The notes beneath the pieces were generated by a model that worked only from the letters and a program-made list of their open reading frames with translations, made no database searches and was not told where the DNA came from. Positions 28,803 to 51,656 of a DNA stretch of 64,000 bases are shown here, piece by piece; within the stretch, counting starts at the first letter, position 1, and every line of letters begins with the position of its first letter. The translations under genes were made by a program, and so were the position numbers. This DNA is from Macrostomum lignano. Its lineage: Eukaryota. The DNA lies in the NCBI GenBank assembly GCA_002269645.1, contig NIVC01001824.1, positions 172,073 to 236,072 of the forward strand. The letters are read 5' to 3'.

Positions 28803-28821
28803 GTTGGTGAGGCCAACTTGA

Positions 28822-28950
28822 TGAGAGGAGACAGGGAGAGAGGAGAGGGAGACAGGTAGAGGGGAGAGGGAGACAGGTAGAGGGGAGAGGGAGACAGGTA
28901 GAGGGGAGAGGGATACAGGTAGAGGGGAGAGGTAGAGAGAGAGAGAAGAG
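28822..28950. repeat. GA-rich repeat at the PLE 3' flank
   Basis: GAGAGGGAGACAGGTAGAGGG units, same family as 49910-50400. Confidence 0.85.
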
Positions 28951-28998
28951 AGGTCACGGCGTGTTTAAAAAAATCAAAGACTTAATTAATTTAATATG

Positions 28999-29036
28999 GG
29001 CTACCGGTTTCGAGCCTCTGGGCTCTTCGTCAGGCC
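28999..29036 (-). ncRNA. Minimal type I hammerhead ribozyme
   Basis: Minus strand GGC CUGACGA A GAGCC CAGA GGCUC GAAAC CG GUA GCC: conserved core, stem II, palindromic ACCGGU stem III, GGC/GCC stem I. Confidence 0.85.
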
Positions 29037-29409
29037 AAAAAATCTGTGTCATGCAATTCAAGTTGGTCTTTTAAGTATTATTTTTCTTAGTCTGATAGAA
29101 TTGATGAGTAGTTGTACATATGAGGGATGTACATTTAAAACCCTGTTTTGCCTAGCTCTAACTTGTCCCAGAGGCTTTCCACCATTCATTTTAAACGACA
29201 GTATATTTGTTATAAAAAATTGTTATTTCGAAGTACTATACGATATGCGATACTATACGATTAGATGAAATGCCGGTATTGGGGGTAGGAGCATAAAAAT
29301 CAATATTGAGCGTACAATTAAGCAGTTTGAATAAAATAAAATAAAATAAATGACACGTGAATAAATATTGTACTTTAATAGGGTGAAAATAGCGCATTGG
29401 TTAAAATGA

Positions 29410-30592
29410 TTAAATGTTTCCTGGCTGAGACTTGAACTTATTGGGAGCCAGGAGGCTCTGTAAGTTACGTTGCCGTGTAAATGCGGGCAGTATGCGGGAG
29501 CCTGGTTTATTTTGTAGCTTATCAAAGTTTTTAGCAATCTCGTTGGCAAGCCAGACCGTAGATGGGTGAAAAGGAAGGACCATTGGGATGGGTCGGAGAA
29601 GATGATTGTCGACCCTGATGTTCGTACCTGGCGGTTTGTCAGTCCCTAGTTTTTTAATCCAGATTTCTTCCCTTAGTTCGATTTTGTTGTTATTAAGAAC
29701 TTGTTCGATAGCAATGGAGACAAAGTTTGCAATTGAGTGATTGGGGTGAGAAAGTGCTCTGACCCCGAAGTTACGACTCTCCTGTTAATATTTGACCTGT
29801 GTTGGTTCATTCTATCTCTCATTGTTCTTCTAGTCATCCCTACATAGAAGATTTTCCCAGGGTGGCACTGGTTGCAGGAGATGCCATAGATGATGTTCTT
29901 GGAGCCACAGGACAGGCTCTGAGAGATTAAAAAACCAGAAGCCGGTTGCAGTCCCTGGGCGGAGAGAGCAGGCGGTGAGTGGGTGCAGCATTTGCAGCGG
30001 GATGACCCACAGGGATGGAACCCTTTGGGAAGCAGACCCAGATTGGTCGTTGGTCCTGCAGTCCAGTTCATAAGTATGAGGACCTCCTTTTTGCAGTTTC
30101 TAAGAAAAATCTTCGAGTAGCCTAATTGCTTGAGTTCCGATTTTAAAGAATTGAAAGCACGGTTGAAAGACTTGTAGTCATCACAGATTCGAGCGTACCG
30201 AAGGACTTGGGATTTTACTACCCCCTTGAAGGTGTGTGACGGATGGAAGGACTGTCGGTGCAACAATCTATGAGTGTCTGTTTCTTTTGAAAACAGTTGT
30301 GTTGTGAAGCGGTTTTCAGCTTTCCTGATGGTCATGTCAAGGAAACTGACCTCAGTTGATGAGGAGCTGACGGTGAGTTTGATGTTGGGGTTGATTGAAT
30401 TTAGGTGTACAACAAATTCTGTCAGAGTTTCAGCCGGGTGGTCCCAGTGAATGAAGATATCATCTATGTACCTAAAATAGATTTTCGGCTTATAAAGAGC
30501 AGTTCTCAGGGCAGTTTCCTCCCAGAGGCTCATGAAGAGACAGGCATAGCTGGGCGCAAATATGCGCCCCATGGCTGTGCCTCTAAGTTGTA
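29410..30592 (-). CDS. PLE RT C-terminal half, Cys linker and GIY-YIG endonuclease (1-nt frameshift near 29752)
   Basis: QLRGTAMG, YFRYIDDIF (30459-30470), FLD, HRQSFHP, NIIYGISC...FYVGMT...R...H; the alternate frame continues REEIWIKKL to TAA at 29410. Confidence 0.92.
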
Positions 30593-49869: not shown

Positions 49870-49909
49870 AGTATGATGCACGGGCACTAGAGCAAGCTAG
49901 GCATAGGCA

Positions 49910-50400
49910 GGAGAGAGGTAGAGAGGTAGAGAGTGAGAGGGAGACAGGTAGAGGGGAGAGGGAGACAGGTAAAAGGGAGAGGGAGACAGGTGAAAGGGAG
50001 AGGGAGACAGGTGAAAGGGAGAGGGAGACAGGTAGAGAGTGAGAGGGAGACAGGTAGAGGGGAGAGGGAGACAGGTAAAAGGGAGAGGGAGACAGGTGAA
50101 AGGGAGAGGGAGACAGGTAGAAAGGGAGAGGGAGACAGGTAGAGAGTGAGAGGGAGACAGGTAGAGAGTGAGAGGGAGACAGGTAGAGGGGAGAGGGAGA
50201 CAGGTAAAAGGGAGAGGGAGACAGGTGAAAGGGAGAGGGAGACAGGTGAAAGGGAGAGGGAGACAGGTAGAGAGTGAGAGGGAGACAGGTAGAGGGGAGA
50301 AGGAGACGGGTAGAGGAAAGAGGGTGACAGGTAGAGGGAGAGGGAGGCAGGCAGAGGGAGAGGGAGGCAGGTAGAGAGAGAGAGGGAGAGAGAGAGAGCA
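49910..50400. repeat. GA-rich repeat at the PLE 5' side
   Basis: GAGAGGGAGACAGGT-based units. Confidence 0.9.
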
Positions 50401-51004
50401 AGAAGCGGGGAGTTGGAGTCCACGATTTTACGTTTCCTTTTTTATTCTGTTTGAGTAGGAAATTCTGAAAAGACTGTTAAAATTGGAAATGCAGGTATAA
50501 ATTCGAGTCTGCAATACTATTTAATTTAGTTACACGCCTCCCGTCAACTGAATGCCTGTCCGTGAACAGGGAAGCCTCCCATTGGCTCTATAGTGGTCAA
50601 CAATGGCGCACTGGAAAATCTTTTTGCCCTGCTTGCGCTGGAGATTCGAGTGAAAAAGAGTAAGATAAAAATTTCAAGCCAAGGTGGTTGAATTTGCGAT
50701 TGCCATGATTTGATGATAATTGGTTTTCGGAATTACCTGTAATTTACTATAAAAACTGATTCTTAAAAGCAATATAAATCTTGTTACTATCAACCTGTTT
50801 ATGGATTGTCTCTAATTGGAATATTTGCGTGTATGGCATCTCAATATTGCGAAGTAACTGTCTATCCGTAAGTACTGCTGTTGCACCGTCCTTTTAGCTG
50901 ACTTCTAATGCGGCTGCCTTTTGCTATCCTTATGCTTATAAAGACTGTGAACCAATCATTTGTGAGCTGTCCCTATCCAGTAACTGTTCATTGTCCCGAT
51001 TTTA

Positions 51005-51525
51005 ATAGTGTCCACTATCTCTATCCAGAGAGTGTCCACTATCTCTATCCAGAGAGTGTCCACTGTCTCTATCCAGAGAGTGTCCACTGTCTCTATCCAG
51101 AGAGTGTCCACTGTCTCTATCCAGAGAGTGTCCACTGTCTCTATCCAGAGAGTGTCCAGTATCTCTATCCAAAGAGTGTCCGCTATATCTATCCAGAGAG
51201 TGTCCACTATCCCTCTCCGAAGAGGGTCCACTATCCCTATCCCAATAGTGTCCACTATCCCTATCCCAATAGTGTCCACTATCCCTATCCCAATAGTGTC
51301 CACTATCCCTATCCCAATAGTGTCCACTATCCCTATCCCAATAGTGTCCACTATCCCTATCCCAATAGTGTCCACTATCCCTATCCCAATAGTGTCCACT
51401 ATCCCTATCCCAATAGTGTCCACTATCTCTATCCCAAGAGCGTCCACTATATCTATCCAGAGTGTCCACTATCTACATCCCAAGAGTGTCCACTATCCTT
51501 ATCCCAAGAGTGTCCACTATCCCTA
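51005..51525. repeat. Intronic 24-bp minisatellite
   Basis: AGTGTCCACTATCCCTATCCCAAT-type units. Confidence 0.92.
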
Positions 51526-51656
51526 CTTCTTGTGTCTATTGCCACTATACAATTGATGCTCTAAAGAACCCGGCCTATTAAATAGCATGCATTTTAGCAT
51601 CAAATCCCAACACATTGCTGCAGCCAAACTAATTACCAATTTTTTACCTGACGCAG

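What the first reader, a model, noticed from the sequence alone, without database searches (positions are those of the whole stretch)
28803..51656. Three-level nesting: Polinton inside the PLE RT inside a filamin intron, with a precisely reconstructable empty site
Seen: GTTGTA is duplicated on both sides of the AGTAG...CTACT element. Removing the element and one copy restores ATG ATT TTC CTA CAA CTT AGA GGC ACA GCC ATG GGG (MIFLQLRGTAMG), the conserved RT motif, in frame. The composite lies antisense in a phase-compatible ~22.9-kb filamin intron. Inference: the Polinton insertion is later than the PLE and inactivates it, and both look young. Whether such insertions are chance or target other TEs is open.
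Basis: seen in the sequence. Interest (0 to 1): 0.72.

Follow-up and report, generated by a model that had tools for sequence, protein, structure and literature searches.

The report
Virus-like transposon inside AlkB-bearing retrotransposon
A 16-kb virus-like transposon (Polinton) sits inside a Penelope-type retrotransposon, which sits in an intron of a flatworm gene; this stacking is likely chance and ordinary, but the retrotransposon family carries an AlkB-type domain predicted to repair or demethylate nucleic acid, which I did not find described for this class.

Summary
The nesting is real in the assembly. The Polinton (30593-46633) is flanked by GTTGTA; 19 of 19 sister PLE copies carry the uninterrupted RT site with one such hexamer; two other copies of the host locus lack both elements. 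Both families are young (98-99% identical copies). The Polinton shows no TE targeting: 20 exact TSDs are 20 different hexamers, and flanks are no richer in repeats than controls (low power). The PLE, by contrast, targets TC-rich repeats (14 of 16 outer ends). No independent contig spanned the junction tested. More novel than the nesting: the PLE's ORF1 holds an intact ALKBH2/3-type domain, ends at a UUUAAAC slippery site before the RT (the scan noted such frameshifts elsewhere in this genome), and many LINEs here carry a separately placed AlkB in ORF1. Nesting ordinary; AlkB-PLE a new variant.

The parts
27022..27033 (+). Probable start codon and first coding bases of the host filamin-repeat gene (donor GT at 27034)
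   Evidence: X12 contig joins this exon (C366-type allele) to 28436; in-frame stop just upstream of the ATG; start inferred
28436..28802 (+). Host exon upstream of the insertion
   Evidence: Both ends marked by loose ends of the X12 contig; open in all three locus copies; weak filamin-repeat likeness only
28803..50569 (+). Host intron (21,767 bp) holding the composite
   Evidence: Splice 28802->50570 seen in X12, for an allele not shown to carry the insertion; 1,110 and 339 bp in C366 and C59
28820..28926 (.). Left part of the GA-rich 21-bp minisatellite into which the PLE inserted
   Evidence: Same repeat, uninterrupted, in C366 and C59
28927..30592 (-). PLE 3' half: RT motifs (GTAMG, YIDD), CxxxxCxxC linker, GIY-YIG endonuclease, 3' UTR, TC-rich tail
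   Evidence: Pfam RVT_1 and GIY-YIG, both below cut-off; 97-99% identical to sisters; private 1-nt deletion at 29747
30587..30592 (+). Left copy of target-site duplication GTTGTA
30593..46633 (.). Polinton/Maverick, 16,041 bp, ends AGTAG...CTACT, ~260-bp TIRs built on ~55-bp repeats
   Evidence: 348 exact 20-nt termini in the genome
32748..33587 (-). Polinton ORF, probably minor capsid protein (inferred from position)
   Evidence: No Pfam hit; Atlas hits 0.98 to unnamed virus-rich clusters
33640..34929 (-). Polinton major capsid protein (double jelly roll)
   Evidence: PF21738 E=1.6e-5, below cut-off
36606..37364 (+). Polinton packaging ATPase; frame ends early in this assembly
   Evidence: PF04665 E=4.7e-6
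39589..43582 (-). Polinton protein-primed DNA polymerase B, in three frames in this assembly
   Evidence: PF03175 E=2.8e-17; ORF list
43593..44072 (-). Polinton ORF with adenovirus protein X-like motif
   Evidence: PF05829 E=4.7e-7
44073..45335 (-). Polinton retroviral-type integrase
   Evidence: PF00665 E=1e-8
46634..46639 (+). Right copy of target-site duplication GTTGTA
46634..47693 (-). PLE ORF2 5' half (RT N-terminus to DVQSLY and MIFLQ); first ATG only at residue 54 after the slippery site
47687..47693 (-). U UUA AAC slippery heptamer just before the ORF1 stop; predicted -1 ribosomal frameshift into ORF2
   Evidence: Unchanged in 26 of 26 copies aligned over it, which are 95-100% identical; downstream fold modest, -9.9 kcal/mol
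47684..49869 (-). PLE ORF1 (728 aa in sisters): N-terminal region, ALKBH2/3-type AlkB domain (~48680-49210), low-complexity linker, possible SGNH-like C-terminus
   Evidence: PF13532 E=1.3e-28 on sister; ALKBH3 structures E=2e-29; SGNH only a lead, score 0.83-0.84; private 1-nt deletion at 48753
49912..50400 (.). Right part of the GA-rich minisatellite; PLE 5' end joins it through CTCTACCTCTC microhomology, no pseudo-LTR
50570..50659 (+).
   Evidence: Acceptor shown by X12; donor GTAAG at 50660 inferred; open in all three copies
51657..55270 (+). Downstream host exons with filamin repeats
   Evidence: PF00630 at 53886 (E=9e-11), 54830 (E=2e-12), weak at 52819 and 53076; 0 substitutions to C366 in four exon stretches

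Best explanation
A Polinton sits inside the RT gene of a Penelope-like element inside an intron of a filamin-repeat gene, most likely through two independent recent insertions: the PLE homing to a TC-rich repeat, then the Polinton landing in it by chance. Step 1 (site shown, mechanism inferred): the PLE's GIY-YIG endonuclease/RT primes at pyrimidine-rich repeats that match its own TC-rich tail, so it entered the minisatellite at the 5' end of the intron, antisense to the gene. Step 2 (TSD and empty site shown): the Polinton integrase made a 6-bp staggered cut in the RT coding sequence, a site that fits the family's only visible bias (T at -3, A at +3). The intron grew from ~0.3-1.1 kb to 21.8 kb; host exons stay open, and the cost is likely buffered by two empty gene copies. 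The PLE family is a two-ORF Neptune-type element whose ORF1 carries an ALKBH2/3-type dioxygenase; RT is likely made as an ORF1-RT fusion by -1 frameshifting, and the AlkB domain would remove methyl lesions (m1A/m3C) that block reverse transcription (inferred, untested).
For: TSD and TIRs; 19 of 19 sisters uninterrupted; empty host copies; 20 of 29 tried end pairs of other Polintons have an exact 6-bp TSD, all different hexamers, with A/T at -3/+3 in 34 of 42 strand-contexts; retroelement RT at 1 of 20 other TSD-verified sites, none in this PLE family; dispersed-repeat or TE hits about 9 of 70 Polinton flanks against 3 of 32 control flanks; chance expectation 0.09 Polintons in this one PLE family; 14 of 16 outer PLE 3' ends run into sequence at least 84% C+T; AlkB HxD...H and RxxxxxR intact in the alignment to ALKBH3; slippery site kept.
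Against: No listed contig spanned the left Polinton junction in four runs (not informative for a single-copy link between two repeats). The two ends of this Polinton differ at TIR position 23, where 24 of 24 other end pairs agree, so one end may be converted, recombined or mis-polished. The window equals C366 outside ~24.3-50.8 kb but differs by 2-6% inside, so neither empty copy is the exact pre-insertion allele. The spliced contig carries the C366-type first exon, so splicing of the filled intron is not shown. The targeting test is weak (42 elements, repeats seen only by Pfam or in 1.08 Mb fetched). The frameshift and AlkB activity are predictions.
Confidence: 0.82

Rival explanations
1. The composite is wholly or partly an assembly chimera of repeat copies.
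For: No junction-spanning contig listed in four runs; discordant TIR position 23 against 24 of 24 concordant pairs; a third-haplotype block around the insertion in an otherwise C366-identical contig.
Against: A chimera would not place the native single hexamer on both sides of exact Polinton ends; the site fits the family's T-3/A+3 bias; the Polinton stretch 31350-32250 is unique in the assembly, next copies 94%, and X12 contigs match it at the listed positions. A mosaic interior remains possible without the junctions being false.
Confidence: 0.07
2. This Polinton family prefers other transposons or repeats as safe-haven targets.
For: One other TSD-verified copy sits in an LTR-element RT (L112/L113); some sit in or beside other Polintons (L088, L109, L119) or tandem repeats (10 of 70 flanks); at C759 a Polinton fragment abuts a copy of the same PLE family.
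Against: 20 different TSDs; tandem repeats at 6 of 32 control flanks; several flanks carry host-type domains instead (CUB, ankyrin, WSC, F5/8, PAN); the C759 join has no TSD, looks like a deletion, and 0.4 such overlaps are expected by chance.
Confidence: 0.09
3. PLE and Polinton moved together as one composite, or the PLE captured the Polinton.
For: None beyond the juxtaposition at C759.
Against: No second composite among 19 sisters checked at the site or 42 Polintons surveyed; the TSD marks integrase insertion into PLE DNA.
Confidence: 0.02

Closest known systems
Polintons/Mavericks of animals (PMC8097293, PMC8502044; passages read)
   Same: pPolB, retroviral-type integrase, ATPase, double-jelly-roll capsid, pX-like ORF, TIRs, AG...CT ends, 6-bp TSD, ~16 kb.
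   Different: No adenovirus-type protease detected by Pfam among the ORFs scanned; end motif AGTAGA rather than (AGT)2 or (AG)3; TIRs built on ~55-bp repeats.
Neptune-clade Penelope-like elements (PMC8557442, PMC5408684; passages read)
   Same: RT then C-terminal GIY-YIG, CX2-5CxxC linker, partial-tandem pseudo-LTRs in sisters, 5' truncation, microsatellite bias, optional ORF1 separated by a frameshift, esterase reported in some Neptune-like PLEs.
   Different: ORF1 carries an ALKBH2/3-type domain; target is (TC)n-type, whereas the passages name (TA)n, (CA)n, (C)n. No RT tree was built, so the clade rests on motifs.
Orchid Ty3/Gypsy elements with an AlkB (ALKBH5-like) m6A demethylase; AlkB of plant RNA viruses (PMC9289625; passages read)
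   Same: A 2OG-Fe(II) AlkB domain carried by an RNA-based mobile element.
   Different: Here the domain is ALKBH2/3-like (repair type), lies in ORF1 of an animal PLE and of LINEs, and is untested.
Nested TE insertions generally (e.g. Pen2a_Av inside Pen3, PMC3846280; passage read)
   Same: A later element inside an earlier one, order read from TSD and empty site.
   Different: Only the particular pairing Polinton-in-PLE-in-intron; my search on Polinton nesting or target preference listed no paper devoted to it.

Membership tests
Polinton/Maverick | [quoted passage not shown] | tested here: met
   PF03175 E=2.8e-17; gene in three frames in this assembly
Polinton/Maverick | Retroviral-type integrase | tested here: met
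   PF00665 E=1e-8
Polinton/Maverick | TIRs and 6-bp TSD | tested here: met
Polinton/Maverick | Packaging ATPase and double-jelly-roll capsid | tested here: met
   PF04665 above cut-off; PF21738 E=1.6e-5, below cut-off
Polinton/Maverick | Adenovirus-like cysteine protease | tested here: inconclusive
   No Pfam hit in the 13 Polinton ORFs scanned; ORFs under 120 aa were not scanned
EN+ Penelope-like element, Neptune type | PLE RT followed by GIY-YIG endonuclease with two Cys between GIY and YIG | tested here: met
   IIYGISCNQCHPGKIFYVGMT in a sister ORF; Pfam weak
EN+ Penelope-like element, Neptune type | CX2-5CxxC linker upstream of the endonuclease | tested here: met
   CGSSRCKCC; definition from PMC8557442
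EN+ Penelope-like element, Neptune type | Partial-tandem pseudo-LTR organisation | tested here: met
   In sisters L067, L071, L078, L175; absent from the window copy
EN+ Penelope-like element, Neptune type | Placement in the Neptune group by RT phylogeny | not tested
AlkB (ALKBH2/3) dioxygenase | HxD...H iron ligands and RxxxxxR 2OG ligands | tested here: met
   Aligned to ALKBH3
AlkB (ALKBH2/3) dioxygenase | Demethylase activity | not testable with these tools
   Needs assay
Filamin (canonical) | Filamin/ABP280 Ig repeats | tested here: met
   PF00630
Filamin (canonical) | N-terminal calponin-homology actin-binding domain and long repeat rod | tested here: inconclusive
   Transcript contig points to a start at 27022; no repeats found upstream in the window or in 10-20 kb before the three copies; a longer isoform is not excluded
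Group I intron-bearing Polintons noted elsewhere in this genome | RF00028 intron and GGNCC depletion | tested here: not met
   No Rfam match in 28400-52000; 30 GGNCC against 27.5 expected

The most novel reading that the evidence does not exclude
Retrotransposons of two classes in this flatworm, a Penelope-like family and many LINE families, have separately captured an ALKBH2/3-type demethylase into ORF1, and the PLE fuses it to its RT by a -1 frameshift, so that the element carries its own enzyme to clear methyl blocks from its RNA template or cDNA.
Probability: 0.35. Interest if true: 0.68.

Novelty: new variant of a known kind. Interest (0 to 1): 0.4.

Why it matters
The nesting itself only dates two active TE families relative to each other and gives a polymorphic 21-kb intron expansion with empty copies for comparison; that is useful but ordinary. 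The AlkB-bearing ORF1 matters more: AlkB in mobile elements was found in my searches only for plant RNA viruses and an orchid Gypsy family. An intact repair-type AlkB in a young animal PLE family, and in many LINEs of the same genome, in a laboratory model animal, would make it testable whether retroelements counter base methylation (damage or host marking) of their RNA.

Tried and rejected
Junction check by public contigs: none of the listed pieces of X3, X2, X5, X7 crossed 30592|30593 (555 pieces not shown; contigs drop rare links), so no verdict. No RNA holder on record was listed; X12 is RNA by the tool's guess. Part of the Polinton (31535-32165) had no cover in X7: no verdict. TE targeting by the Polinton: not supported. 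ORF1 exchange between LINEs and the PLE: rejected for now, the PLE AlkB falls outside the flatworm LINE AlkB group (SH-aLRT 99, quick tree of 87 rows; L171, L173, L174 dropped for short matches; the careful search did not finish). Bacterial origin of the PLE AlkB: best hits are 42-50% identical, partly bacterial, but the tree position is unresolved. Long AlkB-RT fusions elsewhere: one 2,786-aa hit without RT. Group I intron and GGNCC avoidance: absent. C759 as a second nested insertion: rejected, no TSD. A distant PLE near AlkB in L222 showed no slippery heptamer in the 300 nt scanned. One search timed out and was rerun. The 2007 Athena/Coprina paper and the 2017 Terminon paper are not held; I recall, unverified, that some fungal Coprina elements may carry a 2OG-Fe(II) oxygenase ORF, which would lower the novelty. 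Supplements of PMC8557442 and Repbase were not seen.

Full report
Observation. The Polinton ends are unique in the window and define 30593-46633, flanked by GTTGTA on both sides; the TIRs align over about 260 bp at about 92%. Pfam finds pPolB, integrase, A32-type ATPase, a double-jelly-roll protein and a pX-like motif inside, and PLE-type RT and GIY-YIG pieces outside. A genome search with the PLE RT gave 117 candidates, 40 scored at 94-100%. All 19 non-self loci fetched read through the insertion site with a single hexamer, and a natural sister frame reads MIFLQLRGTAMG. So the empty site needs no reconstruction: it exists in the genome, and as a joint in contigs of 3 of 4 public runs. A protein from a sister copy is named as Macrostomum lignano, a species with three subgenomes (PMC10733133, abstract read), which fits three copies of the host locus.

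Host gene. Both flanking exons have exactly three copies in the assembly; C366 and C59 lack both elements and show an uninterrupted GA-rich minisatellite where the PLE sits. A contig of run X12 (RNA by the tool's guess) leaves the upstream exon at 28802/3 and goes on at 50570. The same contig joins an upstream exon ending at 27033 with an ATG at 27022 after an in-frame stop, which suggests a short protein of filamin repeats without an actin-binding domain; no repeats were found upstream. The contig's first exon is of the C366 type, so splicing of the filled intron is not shown. The window has 0 substitutions to C366 in stretches at 19.9-24.3 kb and beyond 51.6 kb but differs by 2-6% from both other copies in between: the insertion lies in a third-haplotype block, and neither empty copy is its exact ancestor.

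The PLE. It spans about 28927-49912 on the minus strand, 11-19 substitutions per ~3,250 nt from six near sisters. Its tail is TC-rich, and 14 of 16 outer 3' ends found run into sequence of at least 84% C+T, so the family targets (TC)n-type repeats; microsatellite bias is known for Neptune-type PLEs (PMC8557442, passages). That explains level one of the nesting. The window copy has no upstream pseudo-LTR, where Penelope's start site lies, and two private 1-nt deletions in homopolymers (48753, 29747) that may be real or consensus errors. The Polinton cuts the RT before YIDD and supplies a stop at once, so the copy is dead in cis either way.

The Polinton family. 348 exact 20-nt termini imply about 170 copies; the PolB stretch is 97-99% identical in 39 other scored copies. 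Of the first 100 termini listed I examined 70 (about 42 elements). Of 29 end pairs tried, 20 have an exact 6-bp TSD, all different; the only bias is A/T at -3/+3 (34 of 42 strand-contexts), which the window's site fits. Pfam on 82 flank ORFs and 37 control ORFs found a retroelement RT at one site (L112/L113) and a Polinton gene at another. BLAST against 1.08 Mb of fetched DNA added six flanks with dispersed repeats, against 3 of 32 control flanks, and none matched this PLE; tandem repeats touched 10 of 70 against 6 of 32. The test is weak, but shows no targeting. Random insertion predicts about 0.09 Polintons in this PLE family alone, and many more over all TE families. Nested PLE insertions are in print (PMC3846280, passage). 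Several Polinton ORFs (ATPase, PolB) are broken in this assembly; whether the breaks are real or errors is left open.

Results against the reading. No listed contig crossed the left junction in four runs; a single-copy link between two high-copy repeats is expected to be lost from such contigs, so this decides nothing. The two ends of this Polinton differ at TIR position 23 (C/T), where 24 of 24 other pairs agree (16 C/C, 8 T/T); this points to conversion, recombination or mis-polishing of one end and is unexplained. The exact TSD at exact ends argues against false junctions, and stretch 31350-32250 is unique in the assembly (next 94%).

What is newer. Full-length sisters have a 728-aa ORF1 with PF13532 that aligns to human ALKBH3 at E=2e-29 with iron and 2OG ligands intact; its C-terminus may be SGNH-like (lead only), as reported for some Neptune-like PLEs (PMC5408684, passages). 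The AlkB region is part of five copies at 99-100% and of older ones at 77-88%. ORF1 ends ACU UUA AAC UAG; the -1 frame is the RT, whose first ATG comes only after the conserved N-terminal motif; the heptamer is unchanged in 26 of 26 copies aligned over it, which are too close to prove selection. A frameshifted ORF1 is in print for PLEs and the scan noted it elsewhere in this genome (e1-8573887). A protein search found 150 scored AlkB-like matches of 192 candidates. Of 20 distant loci fetched, 14 have an APE endonuclease and/or non-PLE RT downstream (10 with APE), i.e. LINEs with AlkB in ORF1 (42 of 60 long ORFs scanned). In a quick tree the PLE domain lies outside the LINE AlkB group, suggesting separate captures. 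Searches for AlkB with Penelope, Coprina, non-LTR or LINE ORF1 terms (listings) gave only the orchid Gypsy case (PMC9289625, passages). Two key PLE papers were not held and supplements were not seen, so absence from print is not established.

Verdict. The finding as given is real, with corrected host coordinates, and is best read as ordinary sequential insertion: targeted PLE, chance Polinton (on its own about 0.2-0.25). The AlkB-bearing, probably frameshifting PLE family raises the overall score to 0.4: a new variant of a known kind, with function untested.

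Noticed in passing
G000-wide; L215-L234: At least 150 intronless ALKBH2/3-like domains; 14 of 20 sampled distant ones lie in 700-1000-aa ORF1s upstream of LINE-type APE/RT. Long AlkB proteins named from spiders and a starfish also turned up.
   Followed up: partly
Polinton termini, L085-L148: The outer ~28 bp of the two TIRs agree within each copy (24 of 24 pairs at a site polymorphic in the family, chance about 7e-7) while inner TIR positions differ: end homogenisation during replication is likely.
   Followed up: partly
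window 31350-32250: Accessory Polinton ORF (31589-32194, Gly/His-rich repeats) unique to this copy at 100%, three others at 94%; contigs of probable-RNA run X12 match it, so this nested copy may be transcribed.
   Followed up: partly
L235 (C759): A Polinton fragment fused by an apparent deletion to a 3'-truncated copy of the same PLE family, whose 5' end joins (GA)n.
   Followed up: yes
L088, L099, L105/L106, L145, L148: Polinton flanks carry PAN, F5/8, CUB, WSC or ankyrin domains; L105/L106 has CUB domains on both sides of one TSD-verified insertion, i.e. insertion into a coding region.
   Followed up: no
window 24570-26225: 1.65-kb foldback insertion with long inverted arms, absent from C366 and C59, in the same third-haplotype block.
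   Followed up: no
window 47013-47165: Seven substitutions clustered in 150 bp of the PLE RT that most sisters lack; possible conversion or template switch.
   Followed up: no
window 28436-28802: This host exon differs by 4-5% among the three copies with several amino-acid changes, while downstream exons are identical to C366.
   Followed up: partly
L222: LINE-group AlkB ORF with a divergent PLE RT 3.5 kb downstream: nested PLE or a second AlkB-PLE pairing.
   Followed up: no
window 2569-3700 and 8263-9242: RT fragment of a non-LTR element and a mariner-type transposase.
   Followed up: no
L096 (C45) and L097 (C46): Polinton ends near the ends of two contigs share a complementary hexamer, probably one element split by the assembly.
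   Followed up: no
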